A DNA stretch of 64,000 bases, from NCBI GenBank assembly GCA_963797095.1, contig CAWCNY010000005.1:480001-544000 (forward strand), read 5' to 3'. Of the stretch, positions 2,269 through 56,498 are shown one piece after another (the first letter of the stretch is position 1; every line of letters begins with the position of its first letter). The translations under genes and the position numbers were made by a program. Origin of the DNA: an uncultured Chloroflexia bacterium (GTDB lineage Bacteria; Chloroflexota; Chloroflexia; QHBQ01; JADMIH01). The notes below the pieces were generated by a model. The model searched no databases and was not told the origin of the DNA. It was given only the letters and a program-made list of their open reading frames with translations.

Positions 2269-2690
2269 ACCTAGCGGAAGCGCACGGTCTGGAAAAGTTC
2301 GAAAGGGCAATATGGGTGGTCGGCAACTTAGACTTCGACGGTGGTCCACGTGGAGAATCGATCCGTCAACAATCGCTTACGGAACTGGCAAACATCAAGG
2401 ATCGATTTGTTTAGTTGGGGGACAACGCAGATTTCAACGATCCCATCATACGTAAGAGCATTGATACTCTTGCCGATCTGTCAAATCCGGCCCTGTCGAT
2501 CAAAGATAATAATGAACAGCGCTTCAGTGCTACTATCTCAGCATTGGGAACGGTAAGCTCTCTACTGCCCTATGTACCGCACAAATCATAACGGCGGATC
2601 CAAAGGTGGGGCGACAATAGTACCGCCTCTCATTTGACAGATCGTTTATAATTAGGCCACTATACACACTCTGTATGGAGGGCTTTCGTC

Positions 2691-5075
2691 GTGTCTACCA
2701 AGCTGCGCCTCACCTATACACTTGCGGTGATTGCGGTTGCACTCATCCTCAATAGCGGGTTCGCATTATTCGTTTATAGCAAACCCCTGGAAGCTGATAC
2801 CCATCCCATTTCTCCGCAGGCCCAGGAACTCGAAGCTCTTTTTAAGCCCACGGATCAACCTGCTACCCTGAACACCGTGACCCCCGATACATCGGTTGTG
2901 CGTCAACGCTTTGTCACCGCGAATCTCTCGCCCTTTGCCGATGCTGACGGCGCCGCTACCGAACGTCTACTACTGAATCTCTTTGACAACTTATCGTTGA
3001 CCGGTATCCGCGAGAGTGTCTGGCACAATACAGATGGTAGTATCGTATGGAAGGGGCATATTCAAGATATCTCCTACAGTGAGGTGTTGATCGTTGTAGG
3101 TGGCGGCTCTATAGCTGCTACTATCCGTATGCCTTCCGCGACTTACCAGATCCGCTATGCGGGCAACGACATATATTCGATCCAGCAGGTTGTCTTTCGT
3201 GGCGAAGAGAGCGAATCAGATGCCGTTGCGGTGCCTGGTAACACAAAACAGCCGACAAACCCAACCCAGATTGACCGGATTCCGTCCTCTCAAAGCCAGA
3301 ACCCTTCAACCCCTATTCAAATTGATGTGATGGTCGTCTGGACGCCCGCCGCACAAAATGCAGCAGGCGGCGCACAGCCACTTCTCAATAAGATCAATCT
3401 TAGCATAGCCGACGCCAATAACGCTTACATTAACAGCCAGATCAATATGCAAGTCCGGCTGGTGCATACGGCGGAGACATCATATACAGAATCTTCAACC
3501 ATGTTGGAAGACCTCACGAAACTCCAAAACCCAAACGACGGTTACATGGATGAGGTACATACGTTGAGGTACCAGTATGGCGCGGACCTGGTCTCACTGG
3601 TGGAATCGGAGTCCGAAACCAACATCTGTGGGCGCGGCTTTCAGCCGAATGCTCCTATCAAGCCTGAAGATGAGAGTTATGGATTCAGTGTGGTTGGTGA
3701 GGATTGTACCGGCGGCCTGACTTTAGCTCATGAAATGGGGCACAACATGGGCTCCGCTCATGATCGCGAGCAATCTGCAATTGACGGCTGCCCTGCCCAA
3801 TGCGGGTCCTACTTGTATTCCTACGGCTACCTTGACCCCGGCGGAGCCTTCATGACAGTGATGTCTTATTACCATTCTGATGCCTGCCCCCCTCCCGGCT
3901 ATTGCCAGACTATAGCATATTTCTCGAACCCCAACGTATACTACAGCGGCATGCCAACTGGAGTCGCCGATAACCAGGCCAATTCCGCCGACAATGCCCA
4001 CTCCATTGCGAATAATGCGGCGGCTGTCGCAGCCTTCCGGGGATCGGATTCGCCCCCGTCTACTCCCCGCAACCTCAGGGTAGCCGGAACCGGGAGAAAC
4101 AGCGTAACGCTGGCCTGGGACCCACCGTCAAATCCTGTGCAAACAGGATACAAGGTCTATCGCTGGAACGGCAGTACCTTTGCCTACATCGGCTCAACCC
4201 CGGCAGATACAACTCAATATGCAGACATCGGCCTACAATGTAACTCGGGTTATTCATTTCAAGTGACAGCGTACAACGGAATCGCGGAGTTGGCCCCTAC
4301 TCCCTTCATAAATGCGTCCACCGCCAGTTGCAGCAGCCCAACGGCAACCCCAACCCCTATCGTCGTGAGCACCCCCACCCCCACCGCAACGCCAATACCG
4401 CCCCGTTGCCCCGGCGAGACCTTCACAGACGTATGCCCAGGCGACTACTTCTACGAGCCGGTCCTCTCACTAAATAGCGCGGGCATAATCTCAGGTTACA
4501 ATACGTCGCCGCCCTGTGAGACACCGGCCCACATACCGTGCTTCCGACCTGCCAGCAATGTAACACGTGGACAAACGTCAAAGATAATAGCCCTCGCGGC
4601 AGGCTTCAACGAGCCTGTTACAGGTCAGACGTTCGCAGATATCCTGCCAGGTTCCACTTTTTACCAGTACATCGAACGCCTTGCCGGTCGAGGCATAATC
4701 AATGGCTATCCGTGCGGCAATCCTGAGCCATGCATTGCCCCTGGTAACAAGCCATATTTTCGCCCAAATGAGAATGTCACTAGAGGCCAGTTATCGAAGA
4801 TTGTTTCACAAAGCTTCGGCTATCAGGACACAATAAGCACGCAAACCTTCCAGGATGTGGCTGTTGGCAGCACCTTCTACGTGTATATAGAGCGACTTGC
4901 GATCCGAGAGATCATAAACGGCTACTCATGTGGAGGTGCTGGGGAGCCTTGCCTACCTCCTTATTCAAGACCATATTTCCGGCCCGCCAATCAGGTTACT
5001 CGCGGCCAAACCGCTAAAATCGTCTACAATGCGCGCCAGTTGAGCGCCTCACCATCAGAAACCGAAGGCAAATAG
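2691..5075 (+). CDS. secreted M12B/reprolysin-like zinc metallopeptidase with FN3 and C-terminal SLH-like domains
   Basis: Signal/TM N-terminus; metzincin motif HEMGHNMGSAHD and Met-turn TVMSY; FN3 (PRNLRV..SVTLAW..Y); Pro/Thr linker; FxDV..F/TRGQ repeats. Confidence 0.88.
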   Translation: MSTKLRLTYTLAVIAVALILNSGFALFVYSKPLEADTHPISPQAQELEALFKPTDQPATLNTVTPDTSVVRQRFVTANLSPFADADGAATERLLLNLFDNLSLTGIRESVWHNTDGSIVWKGHIQDISYSEVLIVVGGGSIAATIRMPSATYQIRYAGNDIYSIQQVVFRGEESESDAVAVPGNTKQPTNPTQIDRIPSSQSQNPSTPIQIDVMVVWTPAAQNAAGGAQPLLNKINLSIADANNAYINSQINMQVRLVHTAETSYTESSTMLEDLTKLQNPNDGYMDEVHTLRYQYGADLVSLVESESETNICGRGFQPNAPIKPEDESYGFSVVGEDCTGGLTLAHEMGHNMGSAHDREQSAIDGCPAQCGSYLYSYGYLDPGGAFMTVMSYYHSDACPPPGYCQTIAYFSNPNVYYSGMPTGVADNQANSADNAHSIANNAAAVAAFRGSDSPPSTPRNLRVAGTGRNSVTLAWDPPSNPVQTGYKVYRWNGSTFAYIGSTPADTTQYADIGLQCNSGYSFQVTAYNGIAELAPTPFINASTASCSSPTATPTPIVVSTPTPTATPIPPRCPGETFTDVCPGDYFYEPVLSLNSAGIISGYNTSPPCETPAHIPCFRPASNVTRGQTSKIIALAAGFNEPVTGQTFADILPGSTFYQYIERLAGRGIINGYPCGNPEPCIAPGNKPYFRPNENVTRGQLSKIVSQSFGYQDTISTQTFQDVAVGSTFYVYIERLAIREIINGYSCGGAGEPCLPPYSRPYFRPANQVTRGQTAKIVYNARQLSASPSETEGK

Positions 5076-5082
5076 GCACGCT

Positions 5083-6204
5083 ATGAACGTCGTAATTGCT
5101 AATAGGCGACTCAGATTTACCCTATCCTGCCTCCTTTTGATGTTGTTGACGTTGTCTACTTATGCCCCGGCTTTCGCATACAAAGGCGCTTCCGGCACTG
5201 ACGTTATCGACACACCGACCATCGTCGATTATCCGGACTCTATAGCTTCCACCGGCGATTCCATCACACGAGCTTTCAATACCGGCAGCGTCCCGTTCAC
5301 CGATGCCCCCGCCAACTCCTGGTCCACGGGCACGAACACCACGGTAAACAGCCACTACCTGCGCATCCTTCAGAACAATCCACCCACCGGCGGGAATACC
5401 TACAACGACGCTGTGACCGGGGCGGTTATGGCCGACCTCAATGGGCAGATGGCGACCGCAATCGGCCAGGGCGTGCAATACGTCACCGTCCTCATGGGTG
5501 CAAACGATGCTTGCACCGACACCGAGGCCGAAATGACCCCTGTCGCCGACTATCGCGCCCAGTTCCAGGCGGCCATCGCCACCCTCAGCGCAGGCCTGCC
5601 CGATGCGCGCATCTACATATTGAGCGTGCCCAGCATCTATACCCTCTGGGAAATTCTCAAAGACAACGCATCGGCCCGCTTGATCTGGAACCTGTTCGAC
5701 ATCTGCCAGTCTATGCTCGCCAATCCCCTCTCCAAAGACCCGGCGGATGTGCAGCGGCGCGAGCGCGTGCGCCAGCGCGTGATCGACTATAACACCCAGT
5801 TGGCCGATGTGTGTGCCGTCTACATCCACTGCCGCTTCGACAACAACGCCGTCTTCAACACAGCCTTTGTGCCGAGCGACGTATCCACGCGTGACTACTT
5901 TCACCCCTCGATACCAGGGCAAGCAAAAATCGCCGGTACCACCTATACTGCAGGCTTCGACTTCAGAGACGGAGCCGCGCCTGCATCCGTGGCCGCCGTT
6001 TCCAAGGCCGGCGCTGGGTTGAGCCATGCGGTGACAATCACCGCTCGTGATAATGTGGGAGTAGCAGGGATCGAGTACAAAATCAATGGCGGCCCATACA
6101 CGCGCTATACAGGCCCGATCACACTCCCTGCCGGCAGCAGCCTCACCTACAGGGCTGTGGATGTGAATGGGACCATCGAGACGGCGCGCACAATTAGCCC
6201 GTAA
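5083..6204 (+). CDS. secreted SGNH/GDSL hydrolase with C-terminal Ig-like domain
   Basis: GDSITRA (block I), GANDAC (block III), DYFHPS (block V); signal peptide. Confidence 0.88.
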   Translation: MNVVIANRRLRFTLSCLLLMLLTLSTYAPAFAYKGASGTDVIDTPTIVDYPDSIASTGDSITRAFNTGSVPFTDAPANSWSTGTNTTVNSHYLRILQNNPPTGGNTYNDAVTGAVMADLNGQMATAIGQGVQYVTVLMGANDACTDTEAEMTPVADYRAQFQAAIATLSAGLPDARIYILSVPSIYTLWEILKDNASARLIWNLFDICQSMLANPLSKDPADVQRRERVRQRVIDYNTQLADVCAVYIHCRFDNNAVFNTAFVPSDVSTRDYFHPSIPGQAKIAGTTYTAGFDFRDGAAPASVAAVSKAGAGLSHAVTITARDNVGVAGIEYKINGGPYTRYTGPITLPAGSSLTYRAVDVNGTIETARTISP

Positions 6205-6244
6205 CCGCTCTAATTGTCCTTAGCAAGATTAGCGCGTCGTGTGC

Positions 6245-7009
6245 CTACACTTCTATCTCGGTCACGGACTCCAGTATCTGCGTGGGCCTGTACGGAAATC
6301 GCTCCGCCTGCTCCCTGGTCGTCACACCTGTCAGCACCAGCACCGTCTCAAGGCCGCTTTCGATACCCATAACGATGTCGGTATCCATGCGGTCGCCCAC
6401 CATCACCGCGTCCTCGGAATGAGTGTCCATCGTCCGGAGGGCTGATCTCAGCATAAGAGGGTTCGGCTTGCCAACATAGTAAGGGGCTACTCCGGTAGCT
6501 CTTTCAACTAACGCTGCTACCGCGCCCGTGGCAGGCGCTATCCCACCCTCCACAGGTCCCACCGGATCGGGATTGGTGGCGATAAAGCGCGCCCCGTCCA
6601 GGATGAACCTGATCGCCTTCGTAATACGCTCGAAACTATAGATCGCTGTTTCGCCTAGCACGACATAGTCGGGAGCGTGTTCGCTCAGCACATAACCCAC
6701 GTCATGCAAGGCTGTTGTAAGCCCCGCCTCGCCGATTGCATACGCTGTGCCGTGCGGGCGCTGTGCCGATAGGAACTGCGCCGTCGCCAACGCCGACGTG
6801 TAAACCTTATCCTCAGACACATCGATCCCCATGTAGCGTAGCCTGTTTGCCAGGTCACGCGGCGTGTAGATCGAATTATTCGTGAGGACCAGGAAGCGGG
6901 TCCCGGTCTCCTGCAGTCGCTTGATGAACTCATCCGCCCCCGGCACGGCTTGCGCCCCCCGGATGATCACACCATCCATATCCATAATGTAGTGTTTGCC
7001 ACGCCCCAT
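6245..7009 (-). CDS. HAD-IIA family hydrolase (NagD-like)
   Basis: DMDGV motif [20 protein letters not shown]; GGAGG upstream of ATG at 7009. Confidence 0.92.
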
Positions 7010-7183
7010 AGCCAACCACCCCCTCCGTAGTCGCAGGCTGTATCACCTGCGCACAATCAGCAGCATTATAGGCCATCAGCAGCACAGTCGCAACAAATAG
7101 TAGAGGCGGAACCAATTGGTTCCGCCTCATCTTACCTTTCCGGCTAATCCAGGGTACACCCGGGATTTCCTTCAGGATTGTGC

Positions 7184-10100
7184 CTAGTTATTGGGTTTAG
7201 CAGCAGATGGAGTGTAGAGGACGGAGAGGTAAGCAATCTTGGAGATTTGTGCTCTCGTCGCATCTGCATTCGGTAGGAAGTAAGGCTTGTTCCCTGGCGC
7301 TACACACGGTCCTGCTGGCGGTGTCCCACATGGGTACCCCTCGATTACTCCGTGTGAGTACGCTGTCTCTATGTACTGGTAGAATGTCGACCCTACCGCT
7401 ACGTCCTCGAACGTGTTCGTCGGTGGGTTCTCCAACGTCCAGTTCGATGGGTCTGCAAGCACTGCTGCTCCTACCACTATCTTCGTGATCTGCCCTCTCG
7501 TCACATAGCTGGCTGGCCTGTAGTACGGCTTGCTTCCTGCTCCACACGGCTCCCCAGGTCCTCCACACGGATACCCTACTATCAGTCCAAGGTTGTATGC
7601 TGTCTCCACGTGTACGTAGAAGGTGTGGCCGATTGGCACGTCCTGGAAGTGTGGTCCTCCTGTGGTGTCGATTGTGAAGTTGAAGGCCAGCACCACTATC
7701 TTGGCTAGTTGTCCTCTGGTGGTTGGGTTACCAGGCTTGAAGCATGGTGTGCCTGTATCGCATGGTGGGGAGGTTGAGTAACCGTTGACCACACCATGGC
7801 AGTACATCCACTGCACATACTCATAGAACCAATCGGTTGGGTGCACATCTGTGAAGTCGACCGGGCAGGCGGTAGCCGTAGCTGTAGCTGTTGGCACCAC
7901 TGCCGTATCGGTGGCGGTTGGCGGCACTACTGCTGTGTCAGTCGGTGGCACTACTGCCGTATCGGTTGGGGGTACGATTGGTGTATCGGTGTCTGTGGGT
8001 GGCACTACCGGCGTGTCTGTATCGGTTGGAGGTACCACTGGTGTGTCGGTGGCTGTTCCTGGTACTTGTGTGTTGGTTGCACTGGGAGCTACTGGTGTGT
8101 CGGTTGGGGTGTTGGTTGAAGGTGGAGTGGTCGGGGTCTCGGTCGGGGTGACACACCCTCCTCCACTCGTGTAGATCTCCATGTTCGCCGTCGCTGTGCT
8201 CGGTGCATACCCTCCTACCAACCAGATCGTGCCTCCCCCGTCTGTGTCTACCGCGAAGTTACGGCGGGCCGTCACGAACGGTGTGCCCACGCTCCAACTG
8301 TCTGTGCCTGGGTCGTACACGTCTACCTCATTCGATGGGTTAGGCGCGTCTCTCCCTCCTCCCATTACCCACATCTCCCCTCCCATCGTCAGCGCTCTTG
8401 TCTCCGCTGTCAATCTTGGGATTGAGGTGATGGTGGTCAAGGTGTTGGTTGTGGGGTCGTACTTGTACGAGTAGTCGGTGTCGAAGATGGTGGTGCCATC
8501 CCACCCAGACCCTCCTGCTGTGTAGATCATCCCTCCTATGGCTGCTGTCGGTATGTACCCAAGGGGCTGAGGTAGTAACGTTGAGCCTTTGAGGGTCCAT
8601 CGTGAGCCTGCTGTGCCGTTGGGGTCGAACTCCCACACTTCCTGGGTCATCCCGATGTTGATGGTGAACCCTCCAAGTATGTACAGCTTGTTGTTCACCA
8701 CTGCATACCCTCCTGGGAGGGTGTCTGTGGGGGCAGGCCAGGCATCTGTGGAACTTATGTCGGTCCATGTGTCGGTTGAGGGGTTGTAGTATCTGACAGC
8801 ACTGGTGCCTGTGGTAGCACCGGCGGCACTCCCACCGACCACCACTATCATGGGTGTGCCACTCACTGTGACCACCCCACCACCCATGTTGTTGACCTGG
8901 TTGTCAGGCACAACAGTGGAGGAGGCGGTGGACCATGAGTTGGCTACAGGGTCATAGATGTGAGGGTTGATGGAGTCTGAGCCTGCGCTGTCAGAGTCTC
9001 GACCACCGATGACATAGAACTTACCGGTGGGGGGGAAGTAGACCCCAAGCCCTCTGATGTTACCAAGGGGGTCATTGAAGTCAGGCCCAGCACCCCAGCT
9101 TGCTCCTCCTGCTATGCACGTAGGCGTCGGTGAGGGGCCCACCGGCGTCGGGGTGGCGGTAGCGCCACAGCCACCTGTACCACGATACAGGTGCTCAGCA
9201 AGCGCCCCTCCGTTGTATCCACCCGTGCTCCATATCTCTCCACCCGCTCTCCCTGTCGAGTAGAACCCTGCCTGGTTCGCTTGCCTCCCGGTCGGGAGGA
9301 GTGGTGCTGATGCGGTGAACGACCCTCCTGGCCATGCCGATACACTGTACTCGTCCACTGCATTTGTGAAGTCGAAGTACGTGCCGTTCTGCGCGTCTCC
9401 TCCTATCGCATACAGCTTCCCTCCTGCCGGGTCGTAGGCCAACGCCATGTCTGCCCTGCCCTGCGTCCAGGTCGGTCCGCTCGTCCATGTCCCGCTGCTC
9501 ATGTCCAAACGCAGGCTTGCTGTCGAGTTGGCATCTGGTGCCTCCACTTTGTCTTGCCTTGCGTTCTTTATTGAACTGGCCGGTAGGTTAGGGTTGGTGT
9601 TAGGGTTGGTGCCCTTGGTCAGAGGGGTTGCCCCGTAGGAGCCTATCGCATACAGATACTGCCCCACGCTCGTATACCCACCCAGTAGGTATGGCGAGGG
9701 GGCGGCGGTACCGCTTGACCATGTGTTGCCAGTGGTGCTGTACACCTCCACCGATGTGGACGCTCCACCACTGCCGCCTCCTACCACATACACATTGGTG
9801 CCCGATGCTCCTACTGCCGACCCATAGGTGTCGGTTACTCCTGGGACCGAGGGTCCTGTGGTCCAGGTGTCAGTGCCGACGTTGTAGATGTAGAAGCCTG
9901 GTCCATCAAAACCCTGCGTGCAGTAGATGAACCCGCTCAGGTAGGCACAACTGTTGGCTTCGCTTGATGCGGGTACTGGAGCAAGGGTAGTCCAGGTGTT
10001 GGTGGCGGCGTTGTACCTGGAGTTGGCGGTGGTCGACGCGAATGTGGCATCCAACCCGCCGATTACATACAGGTCATTGCCGTTCTGTGCAAAGCCGTAG

Positions 10101-52041: not shown

Positions 52042-53301
52042 CTAGAGCACAAGACTGTCTCCCACAAACAGTCCTCCTTCGTCTGGCTTAGAGGGTACGC
52101 CCATCACTCTCCCTTTAGCAAAGTAAGGGAAATCAGGCCATTGAGCGGGGTCGCCTGCTGCCTTGCCAGGCACAGGCAACAGCCGCGCCGTCAGGGGCTT
52201 ATCGAGTTTTACCGCCAGCGTTGCCATATCTAGAATAACTCGTTCCAACTGCTTCAGGGACATATCACCCGCCAGGGGGATCGTATCAAGCCCAAGCCCG
52301 CACACCGCCGACATCAATAGCAGGGTATCGAGCGTCACCAGGCCCTCGCCTGCACGGTCGGCCAGCGTCTGATCCTCCAGCGCGGGCAGCATCAGACCTG
52401 AGTACCCGATAGTAGGCACCAGAGCACGAGCGTCCTTGAGCACAGATGTGACGAAGGCGGCAGCCGCCACAGTGCCAGGCCCACCCAATGGCCCACCTGC
52501 CACCAGTTCTAACGCCCGCCCTATACTTCGATCTGCCGAAGGGTATGGAGCCATCGAAATATCCAGCCCGGTGAACGTGTATCCGGCGTCGGCTCCAAAG
52601 GCCGCACAGGTCTCGGCCACCCGCCCGCCTTCATCGGCCAGCAGGGCCAGCAGGTTCCCACGCGCTTCCTCGTGTGAGCGCGCCCCCTCGAACGCCCGCA
52701 CTGCCAGGTCGGCGGCCTCCAACGCGATACCGAACTCCGGCCCGCTGCTATTCCTCTCATCCTCGATGTAATAGGAGGCAGGGAAGAATGGCACATGGGG
52801 CGGGCAATTGCATGCAGCCGCGAAGCGCAGATTCCCGAATCCGTCCGGCGTGCCATCGGCCAGCGCCCTGATCGCCCGTGCCGCCGCTCTCACCGCTTCC
52901 AGGCTGATTACGCCCGAACCATCACGCCGACCGCCCACCTGTATGCTTCCGAACAGGTTCTCTACTGCCAACAACAGGCCGGGCAGCGCATCCATCAGTG
53001 CTGTAACAACCCCGTCGTCTACATCTGAAACCGACTGGATCGTGCCAAGCGAGCAGTAGTCGAGACCAGACTCTGCACATAGCTTGCCAACCTCGGCCAC
53101 CGCAGCTTGCACACCATCTCCAGGTGTCAGCCAGCGCTCAACCGGCTGCGTCGAAAGGCGGGTGGTTTGCACAGTGAAGCCAGCCGCCTCCAACGCGGCC
53201 TTACCTGTCCCGGCAAACGCGCCAAGACGCTCGATCAGCGCACGGCGCTCCTCGGCGTCTACAGGCAAGGCCGCTCCAACCGTCAACGACCGGATATTCA
53301 T
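52042..53301 (-). CDS. DUF711 (PFL-like) family protein
   Basis: GFGNLRFAA, PFFPASY, GYSGLMLP.LED, SAVCGLGLDTIPL, KPLTARLLPVPG. Confidence 0.85.
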   Translation of the reverse strand: MNIRSLTVGAALPVDAEERRALIERLGAFAGTGKAALEAAGFTVQTTRLSTQPVERWLTPGDGVQAAVAEVGKLCAESGLDYCSLGTIQSVSDVDDGVVTALMDALPGLLLAVENLFGSIQVGGRRDGSGVISLEAVRAAARAIRALADGTPDGFGNLRFAAACNCPPHVPFFPASYYIEDERNSSGPEFGIALEAADLAVRAFEGARSHEEARGNLLALLADEGGRVAETCAAFGADAGYTFTGLDISMAPYPSADRSIGRALELVAGGPLGGPGTVAAAAFVTSVLKDARALVPTIGYSGLMLPALEDQTLADRAGEGLVTLDTLLLMSAVCGLGLDTIPLAGDMSLKQLERVILDMATLAVKLDKPLTARLLPVPGKAAGDPAQWPDFPYFAKGRVMGVPSKPDEGGLFVGDSLVL

Positions 53302-53402
53302 GACAGCATACTTACCCTCTCAGAGTCAGAAGAACACGAAGAAAACATCTTCGTGCTCTTCCCAACCCATGACATTACGCTTGATTCCAGAGTGTCATGC
53401 AA

Positions 53403-54020
53403 CTATGGCTCAACCGGATACCCGGCGTTCTTCCATACATCGTAGCTGTACGGCCCCTGCAATACTTTTATGTTGGTGTAGCCTACACCCTTGAGCGAAT
53501 ACGCCACACTGGCGCTCTCTTCGTCGTGTGGTCATTGGCAGTACAGGATCACATTGCCTGTCTTGGGAATTTCGCTCAACCTGCTCTGGACATCAGGCTG
53601 TGGGATATTGACTGCCCCGGTGATATGACCCTGGTTATAAAACTGGGCATCGCGCACGTCGATTATTTTGACGTTGTTAGCATCGTACAGGGCCTTGGCA
53701 TCTGTGATCGTTATGCGCGGCAACACACTAGGGGAAGTCATAGTTGCAAATGCTATTGCTGTCTGGGTCATGTCTGGCAGAGCGGTTGGCCCGTTTGAGG
53801 TCGATGGTGAGGGCTGCCCACCCTTGTTCTGGCTAACCAGTATAACCACAAGCACCACCAATGCCAGCCCGCTTACCACAAGCAGCGATATGCCAAAGGC
53901 GTCCAACCGCCGCCTTGGTGGCCCGCCCGGCGCGTACCGTGGGTCGATAGGTCTGCTTGGCCCGCGCACCTTGGTGGCAGGCTTACCGCGTCGTGCATTC
54001 TTACCTGGTCTGTAACTCAT
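53403..54020 (-). CDS. membrane-anchored rhodanese-domain protein, probable selenoprotein (C-x-U; TGA at 53532-53534 read as Sec)
   Basis: GAAGGAG RBS before ATG 54020; TM; IIDVR..FYNQGHITGA; YCQ-TGA-PHDEESASVAYSLKGVGYTNIKVLQG...WKNAGYPVEP-TAG completes the rhodanese fold. Confidence 0.82.
53504..53531 (-). promoter_or_regulatory. candidate bacterial SECIS hairpin
   Basis: Immediately 3' of UGA: CCACAC-GACG-AAGAGAG-CGCCA-GUGUGG stem-loop. Confidence 0.55.
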
Positions 54021-54248
54021 ACGCTCCTTCTCTAGCAAAGTGAATAGATTCCGACGAAAAATATAACATAGGCAGGCATGGGGGCACAAGTTCACTTGGC
54101 CCAATAGCTGTATGGCGCATCCCGGTGGCAGCCGCCGGGTTGAATGAAGGCATCGAGGTTGAGCAACTATATCTGAATCTGACAAATATGATCGCAAATC
54201 TTGACACTACAGGCGCTCATGATGTAAACTGAGCGCGACAGCCCAATA

Positions 54249-54345
54249 GAAATCGAGAGTGGTAGCGAGAGAACTGGCTCGTTGACCTACCCGGCAACCG
54301 ATCAAAGACGCGGTGCCAAACCCAGCCCCCATGGGGAAGGATTCG
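54249..54345 (+). ncRNA. SAM-I (S-box) riboswitch
   Basis: ATCGAGAG...GAGAGAACTGGCTC...CGGCAACC...GGTGCCAAA...GAT consensus order; upstream of a methionine synthesis gene. Confidence 0.9.
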
Positions 54346-54364
54346 GCCTTTCGGCAAACGCGAC

Positions 54365-54388
54365 GCCTCTCCTTGTAGAGGCTTTTTT
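54365..54388 (+). terminator. riboswitch expression-platform terminator
   Basis: GCCTCT-loop-AGAGGC-TTTTTT. Confidence 0.8.
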
Positions 54389-54518
54389 GTTGTAAGAATG
54401 AACAAAGAACAATAAGTGACAGGTGACAAGTGACTAGTGACGAGTATCAGGAATATGCAGTAGGCAGTGGTCAAGTAGCGCTCGTCACTTGTCAAATCAT
54501 CAGGCTTACGAGAAGAAT

Positions 54519-56498
54519 ATGACAGAGACCCAACTACACCCATTCCTGGCCCGCCTCAAGGAGCCGGATCCTATCATATGCGATGGCGCGATGGGCACCA
54601 TGCTCTACTCTATGGGTGTGCCTGCCAATAGCTGCTTCGACGAGTGCAACATCACGCAACCCGACATCGTCAGGCGCGTGCACGAGGCTTACATCAAGGC
54701 GGGAGCCGAGATTATAGAGACCAACACTTATGGGGCAAACCGCTTCAAGCTGGCATCGTTCGACCTTGCCGATAAAGTCAAACGGATCAACATGCGTGGG
54801 GCGCGACTCGCCCGCGAAGTACGAGAGGTAAGCGGCCAGCCTGTAATAGTAGCCGGGGCTGTCGGTCCGCTCGGCAAGACGATCCAGCCGGTCGGCCTCA
54901 TTCCAGCCCTGGAAGCCCGAGATTTCTTCCGCGAGCAGGTAGAAGCTCTATTGGAAGGCGGGGTCGACCTGATTATCCTGGAGACCTTCCGGGACCTTGA
55001 GGAGATGCGCCAGGCCCTGATCGCCGTCCGCGACGTCTGCGACCTCCCTGTCGTTGCCCAGATGACTTTTGAGGAAGATGGCCGAACCCAGCTAGGAAGC
55101 ACTCCCCAGGAGATCGTTAGCGCCCTCCAGCAATTGGGAGCCGATGTGATCGGCGCGAACTGCTCCACAGGCCCCCAACGCATGTCGCGCGTTATCGCTG
55201 ATATGGTATCTCATGCTACGATCCCTGTGTCGGCCCAGCCCAACGCCGGGTGGCCCGAAACGGTCAACAACCGCGTAGTGTACGTCTCTACACCTGAGTA
55301 CATGGCTAACTTCGCCCGCCGCATGTTCGATGGCGGCGCGAAGATCCTCGGCGGCTGCTGCGGCACAACTCCCGCCCACATCAAGGCCCTTACTGATGCC
55401 CTTCGGGCGACGAAGGACGAAGGACAAACGACGGACGAAGGAAGAGCAACAAAGACAGATACGGCAGCGCCGTACGTCCTCCGTCCATCAGCCATCACCA
55501 CCGGCGCACTTCGTCCCACCGAGGCCGAGCCGCCGATGCTCCGCGAGGCCGCACCACTCGAAGTAAGTGAGGAGCACACTTCTACCCACAACCAGCCCGG
55601 TTCGTTCGGGTGGAGGCTAGGCAAAGAATTCATTGTTAGCGTCGAACTTGCCCCGCCGCGAGGCATCAACCCTACCAAGGTACTGGCGGGTGCCGAGATG
55701 CTTTTGCGCAAGGGCGTGGATGCCGTCAATGTCACCGACAGCGCCCTGGGCCGCGCCTCCATGAGCGCCCTCGCGGTTTGCTATCAGGTGCTTGGACGCA
55801 CCGGCATGACCGTCATCCCCCACTTCACCACCCGCGACCGCACACTAATGGGCATCCAATCCGAGTTACTAGGCGCCCATTCTATGGGCTTGCGCCACAT
55901 TCTGGCTCTCACAGGCGACGCCCCCAACCCGGTTGACCGCCTCGGCTCCTCAGCCGTGTTCGACATCGACTCTATAGGCTTGATCAAGCTGATCACCAGG
56001 CTCAACCGGGGCGAAGACCTGGCGGGCAACTCCATCGGAGGGATCACCGACTTCCTCATCGGGTGCGCCTTCAACCCGACCGCCCGCGATATCCCTCTCG
56101 AAAAGGAGCGCCTTGCTCAGAAGCTTGAGGCAGGCGCGCATTTCGTAATGACACAGCCCGTCTACGACCTTGAAGTGGTAGATCGCACCCTCGAACATAT
56201 AAAAGACTTCAACGCCAATATCATCCTCGGCATACTACCGCTCCAAAGCTGGAAGCACGCTGAGTTTCTCCACAACGAGGTGCCAGGCATCGTGATCCCG
56301 GAATTCGTGCTCGCCAAGATGTACGAGGCCGGCCCCAACGGCAGGCAGGCGGGCCTTGAAATGGCCCAGGAAATCCTTCAGTACGCTTACTCGCGCTACG
56401 CTGGCGTCTACCTGATGCCATCCTTTGGCCGCTACGAGATGAGCGCCAGCGTGCTCGATGTGCTCCCCAGGTTCCAGAGCGCCGCCATCGAAGCTTGA
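54519..56498 (+). CDS. yitJ: bifunctional homocysteine S-methyltransferase / methylenetetrahydrofolate reductase
   Basis: DGAMGT, ETNTYGAN, GANC, PNAG, GGCCGTTP; C-terminal VELAPP, RDR, LTGD, TQP. Confidence 0.92.
   Translation: MTETQLHPFLARLKEPDPIICDGAMGTMLYSMGVPANSCFDECNITQPDIVRRVHEAYIKAGAEIIETNTYGANRFKLASFDLADKVKRINMRGARLAREVREVSGQPVIVAGAVGPLGKTIQPVGLIPALEARDFFREQVEALLEGGVDLIILETFRDLEEMRQALIAVRDVCDLPVVAQMTFEEDGRTQLGSTPQEIVSALQQLGADVIGANCSTGPQRMSRVIADMVSHATIPVSAQPNAGWPETVNNRVVYVSTPEYMANFARRMFDGGAKILGGCCGTTPAHIKALTDALRATKDEGQTTDEGRATKTDTAAPYVLRPSAITTGALRPTEAEPPMLREAAPLEVSEEHTSTHNQPGSFGWRLGKEFIVSVELAPPRGINPTKVLAGAEMLLRKGVDAVNVTDSALGRASMSALAVCYQVLGRTGMTVIPHFTTRDRTLMGIQSELLGAHSMGLRHILALTGDAPNPVDRLGSSAVFDIDSIGLIKLITRLNRGEDLAGNSIGGITDFLIGCAFNPTARDIPLEKERLAQKLEAGAHFVMTQPVYDLEVVDRTLEHIKDFNANIILGILPLQSWKHAEFLHNEVPGIVIPEFVLAKMYEAGPNGRQAGLEMAQEILQYAYSRYAGVYLMPSFGRYEMSASVLDVLPRFQSAAIEA

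What the first reader, a model, noticed from the sequence alone, without database searches (positions are those of the whole stretch)
53403..54020. Hidden selenoprotein: membrane-anchored rhodanese with a C-x-U motif and an adjacent SECIS-like hairpin
Seen: the ORF track stops at ...VILYCQ-TGA. The same frame continues for 42 sense codons (PHDEESASVAYSLKGVGYTNIKVLQGPYSYDVWKNAGYPVEP) that look like the missing C-terminal part of a rhodanese domain. A stem CCACAC/GUGUGG starts at the first base after UGA. Established: rhodanese active-site loops start at the YC Cys, and bacterial Sec insertion uses a hairpin directly 3' of UGA. From memory, some homologues read YC-x-C-P, which would put Cys at the UGA position. 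Inference: a 205-aa protein with Sec163. Its basic N-tail, single TM and Pro/Ser/Thr linker predict an extracytoplasmic Cys/Sec redox or sulfur/selenium transferase. It sits divergent to the SAM-riboswitch methionine gene and upstream of DUF711. Standard pipelines would call it truncated.
Basis: partly seen in the sequence, partly recalled or inferred. Interest (0 to 1): 0.88.

Follow-up and report, generated by a model that had tools for sequence, protein, structure and literature searches.

The report
Membrane-anchored Cys-x-Sec rhodanese selenoprotein
The gene is a real selenoprotein gene: its in-frame TGA is read as selenocysteine in an exported, membrane-anchored rhodanese, but it belongs to a selenoprotein family that has been described since 2005.

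Summary
On the minus strand, an ORF starting at 54020 meets TGA at 53534-53532 (codon 163). The frame then runs 42 more codons to TAG at 53402-53400.

Evidence that the TGA encodes selenocysteine:
- The genome has selA, selB, tRNA-Sec (the only UGA-reading tRNA of 71) and a selD that itself carries an in-frame TGA.
- Of 20 syntenic orthologue loci in one genus, 10 have TGA (YCQUP) and 10 have a Cys codon (YC[DE]CP) at this position.
- The read-through tail completes a confidently modelled rhodanese fold.
- A hairpin 17-31 nt after UGA (GCGCC-NGUNN-GGCGC; window 53515-53501) is kept in 48 Sec-form sequences from several phyla. It shows frozen synonymous sites and a few compensatory changes. It was absent from the lowest-energy folds of 4 of 4 Cys forms tested.

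The protein has a basic N-tail, one transmembrane helix, a linker and an outward-facing domain. Cys161 sits at the canonical catalytic position and Sec163 lies in an enlarged, acidic loop.

The family is already described as "rhodanese-like protein form 3, CxU motif", NCBIfam NF041203. This gene scores below that model's cut-off, so it is a new member, in a Chloroflexia subclade. Its biochemical function is inferred, not shown.

The parts
53400..54020 (-). Full coding sequence of the selenoprotein (205 aa plus TAG stop): ATG 54020, Sec codon 163, TAG 53402-53400
   Evidence: The start MSYRP is shared with homologues. Pfam Rhodanese 6.9e-16.
54024..54029 (-). Shine-Dalgarno-like AAGGAG, 3 nt upstream of the ATG
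   Evidence: Read directly. Not tested against chance.
53532..53534 (-). In-frame TGA = Sec163, second position of the C-Q-U motif
   Evidence: The position aligns with TGA in 10 and with TGT/TGC in 10 of 20 orthologue loci.
53501..53515 (-). Conserved SECIS-like hairpin: 5' arm GCGCC (53515-53511), loop AGUGU (53510-53506), 3' arm GGCGU (53505-53501). It starts 16 nt after the UGA.
   Evidence: 96.3% of 240 cells are paired across 48 sequences. Changes that keep pairing: C-G to U-A 3 times, G-C to G-U 7 times. Third-codon positions are frozen in this stretch.
53504..53531 (-).
53832..53897 (-). Single transmembrane helix, residues 42-63
   Evidence: Mean Kyte-Doolittle 3.21 over a 19-residue window starting at residue 44. 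AlphaFold2 helix 41-64.
53898..54020 (-). Basic N-terminal tail, residues 1-41 (12 K+R, 2 D+E), with the conserved motif RGPSRPIDPRYAPG. Predicted to be cytoplasmic.
   Evidence: The location is inferred from the positive-inside rule.
53403..53720 (-). Rhodanese domain, about residues 101-205, including the 42 read-through codons (53403-53531)
   Evidence: Pfam match to residues 106-191. AlphaFold2 10-residue block pLDDT 89-97 over residues 101-205. Foldseek and PDB rhodanese hits.
52042..53301 (-). DUF711 (UPF0210) gene, a conserved downstream partner with a 98-nt gap and no terminator-like site found between the two genes
   Evidence: PF05167 261 bits. Found downstream in 18 of 19 orthologue loci. 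0 terminator-like sites in 53200-54300.

Best explanation
The gene at 54020-53400 (minus strand) encodes a 205-residue selenoprotein. SelB with Sec-tRNA(Sec) reads UGA163 as selenocysteine, directed by a small hairpin in the coding sequence that starts 16 nt after the UGA (stem GCGCC/GGCGU, loop AGUGU). The protein is a type II membrane protein: a basic cytoplasmic N-tail, one transmembrane helix, a low-complexity linker and a single rhodanese domain on the outer face of the cytoplasmic membrane. Cys161 occupies the canonical rhodanese catalytic position. Sec163 sits two residues later in an active-site loop that is two residues longer than in thiosulfate sulfurtransferases and is acidic rather than basic.

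The most likely chemistry (inferred) is a Cys-x-Sec redox or chalcogen-transfer centre that cycles through a selenenylsulfide. For example, it could accept or resolve a persulfide or polysulfide, or a selenium species, outside the cell, and be re-reduced by an extracytoplasmic thiol-disulfide relay. It is a Chloroflexia-clade member of the already described CxU rhodanese selenoprotein family.

Shown: the recoding signals, the Sec machinery, Sec/Cys interchange in orthologues, the fold, and the hydrophobic leader. Inferred: the topology and the chemistry.
For: Sec machinery in the same genome:
- selA 566.7 bits and selB 323.5 bits.
- selD 324.6 bits with one in-frame TGA in the motif CAGUAGK.
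- tRNA-Sec 69.1 bits with anticodon tca. It is the only UGA-reading tRNA among 71.

Orthologues:
- Of 20 loci in one genus, 10 read YCQ-TGA-P and 10 read YC[DE]-TGT/TGC-P.
- DUF711 follows in 18 of 19 non-window loci, so these are syntenic orthologues.
- Public databases hold full-length Cys forms. All 4 truncated forms I aligned end exactly at LYCQ.

Fold: the read-through tail is modelled at pLDDT 89-95 as the last helix-strand-helix of a rhodanese domain. Top Foldseek and PDB hits are rhodaneses.

RNA signal:
- The hairpin is paired in 96.3% of 240 cells over 48 distinct Sec-form sequences, against 21.7-60% for slid controls.
- There are 3 C-G to U-A and 7 G-C to G-U changes.
- Third-position entropy is 0.19-0.37 bits in codons 169-173, against 1.0-1.94 in neighbouring conserved codons.
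- Two sequences replace the hairpin with a different 7-8 bp hairpin at the same place. 5 of 6 Sec forms fold the hairpin in the MFE; 0 of 4 Cys forms do.

Export:
- One hydrophobic segment (KD 3.21) and an N-tail with 12 K+R against 2 D+E.
- 57 of 58 family members from several phyla carry a transmembrane anchor, a signal peptide or a lipobox-like leader.
- Two Sec paralogues lie about 2 kb downstream of selB, directly after a membrane-anchored ResA-like thiol-disulfide oxidoreductase gene.

Family: the best NCBIfam match is NF041203, 'rhodanese-related (seleno)protein'.
Against: - There is no direct evidence of selenium incorporation, transcription or translation. No RNA run holds the stretch, and the one DNA run laid does not cover the TGA.
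- The single-sequence fold is not better than shuffles (z -0.46 and -1.27).
- The stem is almost invariant, so covariation is thin. Only 2 of 5 pairs show a change on both sides, and 51 of 500 shuffles reach that count.
- The MFE of one paralogue (L041) does not choose the hairpin.
- No Rfam family matches.
- The NF041203 score of 72.1 is below the curated cut-off of 115.
- The conserved partner DUF711 showed no extra Pfam domain and was not examined for export signals. If it is cytoplasmic, it fits awkwardly with an extracytoplasmic domain.
- The topology rests on the positive-inside rule only.
- The loop lacks the Arg residues that bind thiosulfate, so classical sulfurtransferase activity is doubtful. 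The real substrate is unknown.
Confidence: 0.85

Rival explanations
1. The TGA is a true stop. The gene is a pseudogene or a naturally truncated 162-residue protein, and the downstream frame is a decaying remnant.
For: Gene callers output the 162-aa product (P0001). Cys-form orthologues exist, so a TGT/TGC to TGA nonsense change is one step away.
Against: - TGA at the same codon recurs in 35 distinct sequences from the order and 13 more from other phyla.
- The 42 downstream codons are conserved as protein and complete the fold at pLDDT 89-95.
- Truncation would remove the last helix-strand-helix of the domain.
- The paralogue clade is 22 of 22 Sec with no Cys form.
Confidence: 0.03
2. UGA163 is read through, but as Cys, Trp or another standard residue (near-cognate suppression, or a Cys-charged tRNA-Sec-like tRNA), not as selenocysteine.
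For: Cys is functionally acceptable at the site, since 10 orthologues have it. Recoding of Sec codons to Cys by tRNA-Sec-like tRNAs has been reported in some bacteria; this is recalled, not checked here.
Against: - Only one UGA-reading tRNA was found. ARAGORN types it as tRNA-SeC and it scores 69.1 bits on RF01852.
- selA, selB and a Sec-containing selD are intact.
- The conserved hairpin with an invariant G and a nearly invariant U in the loop is what SelB-dependent decoding needs. The requirement is recalled; the conservation is shown.
Confidence: 0.05
3. It is a genuine selenoprotein, but the domain faces the cytoplasm or acts with DUF711 in a cytoplasmic pathway. The hydrophobic segment would then be only a membrane tether with the opposite orientation.
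For: Conserved gene pair with DUF711 (18 of 19 loci), and no terminator-like site between the genes. The N-tail carries a conserved motif, RGPSRPIDPRYAPG, that could be a docking site.
Against: - The N-tail has 12 K+R, against 1 in the 15 residues after the helix.
- Homologues in other phyla have cleavable-looking signal peptides (VSAQK) or lipobox-like leaders (LSSC) instead of an anchor. That points to export for the whole family.
- The paralogues sit next to an anchored ResA-like protein.
Confidence: 0.07

Closest known systems
Rhodanese-like domain-containing selenoprotein 'form 3' (CxU motif; NCBIfam NF041203 rhodanese_LYCAU). The two reviews credit it to Zhang & Gladyshev 2005, Bioinformatics (PMC9312934 and PMC13188914; I saw passages only).
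   Same: - Single PF00581 domain, with Cys at the canonical catalytic position and Sec two residues later.
- It is the best NCBIfam hit, covering profile positions 10-124 of 126.
- Sequences from Thermoanaerobaculia (YCAUQ), which carry that model's name motif YCAU, share the same hairpin after the UGA.
   Different: - The score of 72.1 bits is below the curated cut-off of 115.
- Even the YCAUQ and YUSU sequences I tested score only 84.4 and 91.2, so the model is narrow.
- This clade has Q before Sec (CAA in 35 of 35).
- It has a long basic N-tail plus a transmembrane anchor instead of a signal peptide, and a fixed DUF711 neighbour.
UxU form of the rhodanese-related sulfurtransferase selenoprotein (Olavius symbiont metagenome, PMC1976440; passages seen)
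   Same: Same family. I found a YUSU example in a Dehalococcoidales MAG (L078) with the same hairpin.
   Different: The window's protein keeps Cys at the first position (C-Q-U).
TsoB, rhodanese/DsbD fusion-like selenoprotein (NCBIfam NF045694)
   Same: A rhodanese domain carrying Sec and tied to a transmembrane thiol-disulfide electron path. There is a weak match (24.9 bits).
   Different: TsoB is a 572-position fusion with a UxxxxU motif and a cut-off of 805 bits. Here there is no DsbD domain, only a neighbouring ResA-like gene beside the paralogues.
PspE / GlpE single-domain thiosulfate sulfurtransferases (PDB 2jtq, 1gmx)
   Same: Same fold and catalytic Cys position. PspE is also exported (recalled).
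   Different: - The active-site loop here is two residues longer and is acidic (C-Q-U-P-H-D-E-E-S against C-x-x-G-x-R-S; HMMER opens a 2-residue gap).
- Scores of 34 and 32.8 bits are far below the cut-offs of 102.
- Those proteins contain no Sec.

Membership tests
Bacterial SelB-dependent selenoprotein gene | In-frame UGA that aligns with Cys (or UGA) in homologues | tested here: met
   Of 20 syntenic orthologue loci, 10 have TGA and 10 have TGT/TGC. 48 distinct Sec-form sequences in all.
Bacterial SelB-dependent selenoprotein gene | Protein-level conservation downstream of the UGA | tested here: met
   The 42-codon tail is conserved and modelled at pLDDT 89-95 as part of the fold.
Bacterial SelB-dependent selenoprotein gene | SECIS stem-loop shortly 3' of the UGA, with G (and U) in the apical loop. 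The expected distance window is recalled from the bSECISearch description, not checked. | tested here: met
   The hairpin starts 16 nt after the UGA. Loop position 2 is G in 48 of 48 and position 3 is nearly invariant U. 96.3% of cells are paired and synonymous sites are frozen. Covariation is thin. SelB binding was not tested.
Bacterial SelB-dependent selenoprotein gene | selA, selB, selC and selD in the genome | tested here: met
   selD is itself a Sec protein.
Bacterial SelB-dependent selenoprotein gene | Selenium actually incorporated at the UGA | not testable with these tools
   Needs 75Se labelling or mass spectrometry.
NCBIfam NF041203 rhodanese_LYCAU (equivalog) | Whole-protein score at or above the curated cut-off (115 bits) | tested here: not met
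   72.1 bits. The paralogues score 72.7 and 67.2, and Cys-form orthologues 68.9 and 70.0.
NCBIfam NF041203 rhodanese_LYCAU (equivalog) | L-Y-C-x-U motif in a single rhodanese domain | tested here: met
   The window reads LYCQU at residues 159-163. That the model's U aligns with residue 163 is inferred from its name and the near full-length match; the HMM alignment was not shown.
Rhodanese selenoprotein 'form 3' as listed in reviews (PF00581 + CxU) | PF00581 domain with a CxU motif at the active site | tested here: met
   PF00581 at 59 bits against a cut-off of 22.2. The motif is C161-Q-U163. The definition is taken from passages in PMC9312934 and PMC13188914.
Canonical thiosulfate sulfurtransferase (GlpE/PspE type) | Six-residue basic active-site loop C-R-x-G-x-[RK] followed by S/T | tested here: not met
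   The loop is two residues longer and carries D/E/E and no Arg. HMMER gaps 2 residues against 6mxv and 3tp9. GlpE scores 34 and PspE 32.8 bits, against cut-offs of 102.

The most novel reading that the evidence does not exclude
In this Chloroflexia lineage the CxU rhodanese has expanded into a small set of outward-facing, membrane-anchored selenoproteins, with three copies in this genome. Two of them lie about 2 kb downstream of selB, directly after a ResA-like oxidoreductase gene. Together they may form an extracytoplasmic selenol-based redox or chalcogen-handling system, for example capture or detoxification of external polysulfide or selenium species. The conserved cytoplasmic tail (RGPSRPIDPRYAPG) may couple the DUF711-linked copy to the unknown function of DUF711. 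Within one genus this copy has moved from Sec to Cys while the same genomes keep Sec in the paralogues. A 2026 review calls that direction of change rare in bacteria.
Probability: 0.15. Interest if true: 0.6.

Novelty: new member of a known kind. Interest (0 to 1): 0.33.

Why it matters
The practical consequence is an annotation fix. This gene and its many relatives in Chloroflexota MAGs are stored as proteins cut at LYCQ (P0001 and 4 of 4 truncated homologues that I aligned). The NCBIfam model that should rescue them misses them by about 40 bits.

For biology, the case gives a clean natural experiment. Syntenic orthologues in one genus differ by Sec or Cys at one active-site position, and the hairpin decays in step in the Cys forms. 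That could be used to ask what Sec buys an exported rhodanese, and to define a minimal SelB-binding element for this phylum.

It does not reveal a new kind of system.

Tried and rejected
It is not in the MFE folds and the 5' arm is not conserved.
- Rfam, with permissive thresholds on 53300-54600, gave no SECIS family match. It found only the SAM riboswitch and a chance snoRNA hit.
- Sequencing runs: no RNA holder is listed. One soil-metagenome DNA run held 0.30 of the sampled words. When laid, its two contigs cover 53350-53472 and 53543-53697 and so miss the TGA. It gives no independent check of the base call.
- Number of Sec/Cys switches: the tree needs 3 changes, but well-supported branches force only 1. 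The AU test does not reject a single Cys clade (p 0.446). I therefore claim at least one switch, not several. The direction (Sec ancestral) rests on the all-Sec paralogue outgroup, the basal Sec rows and the shared hairpin. It is inferred.
- The tree used 43 rows from loci L021-L061. My filter dropped copies with fewer than 55 residues before the motif, fewer than 30 after it, or an upstream in-frame TGA. These include the second copy in L049 and the contig-end copy in L059.
- A Tat signal was considered for the RR just before the helix. It is not supported: the segment is very hydrophobic (KD 3.2), the n-region is 41 residues long, and one homologue (P0037) lacks the RR. It was not tested further.
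- A metal site (Cys, Sec, His, Asp/Glu) was considered. His165 is not conserved: N, G or A in other Sec-form orthologues and A in most paralogues.
- Not run: complex prediction, the protein-atlas search and the search of protein representatives. No claim here depended on them.
- Papers: I saw only the search listing and passages. Supplementary tables are closed, so member lists in the reviews or in Zhang & Gladyshev 2005 may already include Chloroflexota sequences. The word Chloroflex* does not occur in the main text of PMC13188914 or PMC9312934, nor 'Chloroflexi' in PMC5029168. The 20 papers (12 listed) were seen as a listing only.
Full report
**What is in the sequence**

The feature lies on the minus strand. 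An ATG at 54020, preceded by AAGGAG at 54029-54024, opens a frame that reads MSYRPGK... and meets TGA at 53534-53532 after ...VILYCQ. Read through, the frame continues for 42 sense codons (PHDEESASVAYSLKGVGYTNIKVLQGPYSYDVWKNAGYPVEP) to TAG at 53402-53400. The product is 205 residues with position 163 at the TGA. The whole protein has only two Cys/Sec positions, C161 and U163.

**Can the organism decode Sec?**

The window is C5:480001-544000 of a 6.02-Mb, 8-contig genome. That genome holds:
- selA (566.7 bits, cut-off 267.9);
- selB (323.5 bits, cut-off 242.25);
- selD (324.6 bits, cut-off 125);
- tRNA-Sec (69.1 bits on RF01852, gathering score 47).

ARAGORN types the tRNA as tRNA-SeC with anticodon tca. 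Across the whole genome it is the only one of 71 tRNAs that reads a stop codon. The selD gene has one in-frame TGA, in the motif CAGUAGK of its N-terminal loop. It is therefore a second predicted selenoprotein gene in the same genome.

**Orthologues**

I searched 41 genomes (G000 plus 40 relatives) with the read-through protein, counting stops. This gave 20 best loci in the same genus, the window's included.
- In 10 loci the position is TGA, always as YCQ-U-P.
- In the other 10 it is TGT or TGC, always as YC[D/E]-C-P.
- A DUF711 gene follows on the same strand in 18 of the 19 non-window loci, so these are syntenic orthologues.
- The divergent MetH-like gene is seen within the 1.5-kb flank in only 2 of the 19.

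The large protein collection tells the same story. Full-length relatives of about 200-213 aa, named "rhodanese-related sulfurtransferase" or [quoted passage not shown], cover 100% of the query and read YC[DE]CP. The shorter ones cover 79%. All 4 truncated ones that I aligned end exactly at LYCQ. The window's own product is stored as a 162-aa protein (P0001).

Three of the 20 loci (L032, L035, L039) come from genomes flagged unpublished. Without them the split is 9 Sec and 8 Cys.

**Paralogues**

One search also lists many further hits with exactly one TGA.
- The own genome has two, at C4:290405-291043 and C4:291592-291927. They begin about 2 kb downstream of selB and directly follow a membrane-anchored ResA-like thiol-disulfide oxidoreductase gene with a WCPPC motif (107.6 bits to NF002854, below its cut-off of 170).
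- I fetched 20 more loci and collected 35 distinct Sec-form sequences.
- A tree of 43 rows separates a DUF711-linked clade (11 Sec, 10 Cys) from a paralogue clade (22 Sec, 0 Cys). Each has 100% SH-aLRT support.
- Genomes whose orthologue is a Cys form still carry TGA paralogues, for example G004, G007, G009, G014, G015 and G019. The Cys forms are therefore not a consequence of losing the Sec trait.
- The tree needs 3 Sec/Cys changes, but well-supported branches force only 1. An AU test does not reject a single Cys clade (p 0.446).

**The RNA signal**

In the 35 sequences the bases after UGA are strikingly fixed where they form GCGCC-NGUGN-GGCGC, alignment columns 26-40. In the window this is:
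- 5' arm 53515-53511 (GCGCC);
- loop 53510-53506 (AGUGU);
- 3' arm 53505-53501 (GGCGU, closing with a G-U pair).

Third-codon-position entropy is 0.19-0.37 bits for codons 169-173. Ser is AGC in 34 of 35, Ala is GCC in 32 of 32, Val is GTG in 29 of 31, and Ala is GCG in 33 of 35. By contrast, entropy is 1.0-1.6 bits for codons 166-168 and 1.94 bits for the invariant Leu176.

Adding 13 Sec-form sequences from named MAGs brings real variation. These come from Ktedonobacterales, Anaerolineae, Dehalococcoidales, Pyrinomonadaceae, Thermoanaerobaculia and other Acidobacteriota.
- Over 48 sequences, 96.3% of 240 cells pair.
- Pair 27-39 is C-G in 42 sequences and U-A in 3. Pair 28-38 is G-C in 39 and G-U in 7.
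- Structures slid by 1-3 columns pair in only 21.7-60% of cells.
- The encoded residues change at codons 172 and 173 (V-A, A-V, S-A, L-A, E-A, A-A) while pairing is kept.
- Loop position 2 is G in 48 of 48, and position 3 is nearly invariant U.

Two sequences (L040 and the second copy in L043) carry a different 7-8 bp hairpin at the same place. Among the MFE folds, 5 of 6 Sec forms contain the hairpin and 0 of 4 Cys forms do. One Cys form (L022) encodes the same residues ESASVAY as the window, but with codons that break the stem.

Weak points should be stated plainly.
- Single-sequence energies are not better than shuffles (z -0.46 and -1.27).
- Only 2 of 5 pairs show a change on both sides, and 51 of 500 shuffles reach that count.
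- Rfam has no match.

**The protein**

- Pfam finds a rhodanese domain at residues 106-191 (59 bits).
- AlphaFold2, run on a 17-row alignment, gives pLDDT 89-97 for every 10-residue block from 101 to 205. The model has helix 167-178, strand 184-187 and helix 192-198, all after the UGA, plus a helix at residues 41-64.
- Foldseek's best hits are rhodanese domains (3tp9, 6mxv, 3gk5, Alr3790, YgaP and others; E down to 6e-10).
- A profile search of PDB sequences aligns YC-D-C-P-H-D-E-E-S-A to YCG--SGFRSA and YCR--TGGRSA with a two-residue gap.

So Cys161 is the canonical catalytic Cys. The loop is two residues longer than in thiosulfate sulfurtransferases, and it carries acidic residues where those enzymes have Arg.

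**Location**

- The only strongly hydrophobic stretch is at residues 42-63 (mean Kyte-Doolittle 3.21).
- The 41-residue N-tail has 12 K+R and 2 D+E. The 15 residues after the helix have 1 K+R.
- Residues 64-100 are 76% P/S/T/G/A/N/Q.
- By the positive-inside rule, the domain faces outward.

Across 58 distinct family members (Sec and Cys forms, several phyla), 57 have a hydrophobic leader before the domain. The one exception is an artefact of my cut at an upstream TGA. In other phyla the leader looks like a cleavable signal peptide (AGSVSAQK, L071) or a lipoprotein signal (LLSSC, L078). The ResA-like neighbour of the paralogues is anchored in the same way. Export of the whole family is therefore likely, but it is inferred.

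**What is known**

- NCBIfam's best match is NF041203, rhodanese_LYCAU, "rhodanese-related (seleno)protein". The window scores 72.1 bits against a cut-off of 115.
- The paralogues score 72.7 and 67.2, Cys-form orthologues 68.9 and 70.0, and the YCAUQ and YUSU forms 84.4 and 91.2. The model is narrow.
[quoted passage not shown] They credit Zhang & Gladyshev 2005 (passages of PMC9312934 and PMC13188914).
- A UxU form was reported in 2007 (PMC1976440, passage). The Dehalococcoidales sequence L078 is such a form.
- The 2026 review states that Sec-to-Cys substitutions in bacteria are rare and documented mainly for FdhA and SelD.

**Verdict**

The SECIS is a different hairpin from the one proposed, and the family is already described. 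What this locus adds:
- a Chloroflexia subclade that current models and pipelines miss;
- a fixed DUF711 neighbour;
- a conserved cytoplasmic tail motif;
- a within-genus Sec/Cys polymorphism with matching decay of the hairpin.

The biochemical role, a Cys-x-Sec selenenylsulfide centre acting outside the membrane, is an inference from motif, loop composition, location and neighbours. Nothing here tests it.

Noticed in passing
G000:C2:243079-243930 (L010:1462-2595): The genome's selD has one in-frame TGA in the motif CAGUAGK, so SelD looks like a second selenoprotein gene of this organism.
   Followed up: partly
G000:C4:284000-296000 (L061): selB 2589-4487, ResA-like about 5476-6297, rhodanese paralogues 6352-7116 and 7170-7946: Two further membrane-anchored YCQU rhodanese genes sit in tandem about 2 kb downstream of selB, directly after an anchored ResA/TlpA-like thioredoxin-fold gene (WCPPC). 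This may be an extracytoplasmic redox module placed next to the Sec elongation factor gene.
   Followed up: partly
window 53898-54020 (residues 1-41): The cytoplasmic N-tail carries a well conserved motif, RGPSRPIDPRYAPG, in both Sec and Cys orthologues. Its function is unknown; it might be a docking site.
   Followed up: no
window 53535-53537 and alignment A2, columns 4-6: The codon before the Sec codon is CAA (Gln) in 35 of 35 Sec forms of this order, never CAG. Cys forms have Asp or Glu there, and other phyla have Ser, Thr or Ala before Sec. I could not tell whether this reflects decoding context or chemistry.
   Followed up: partly
L078:1273-1851 (Dehalococcoidales MAG): A lipoprotein-like rhodanese reads YUSU, with two in-frame TGA codons two residues apart. 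It matches the UxU form reported in 2007 for Olavius symbionts.
   Followed up: partly
L068:1501-2410 (Pyrinomonadaceae MAG): One locus holds two YCSUP rhodanese domains about 550 nt apart, each with its own TGA and hairpin. I did not check whether they are tandem genes or one two-domain protein.
   Followed up: no
window 54247-54346 (+) and 54489-56498 (+): A SAM riboswitch scores 45.4 bits, just over its gathering score of 44.4. It precedes a fusion of homocysteine S-methyltransferase (PF02574) and MTHFR (PF02219) domains, and a TTGACA/TAAACT promoter-like site lies at 54201-54230.
   Followed up: partly
L022:1576-1629 (G004): This Cys-form orthologue encodes the same residues ESASVAY as the window, but with codons AGC GCC AGC GTG GCC that break the hairpin. 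It looks like a recently decayed SECIS after a Sec-to-Cys change.
   Followed up: partly
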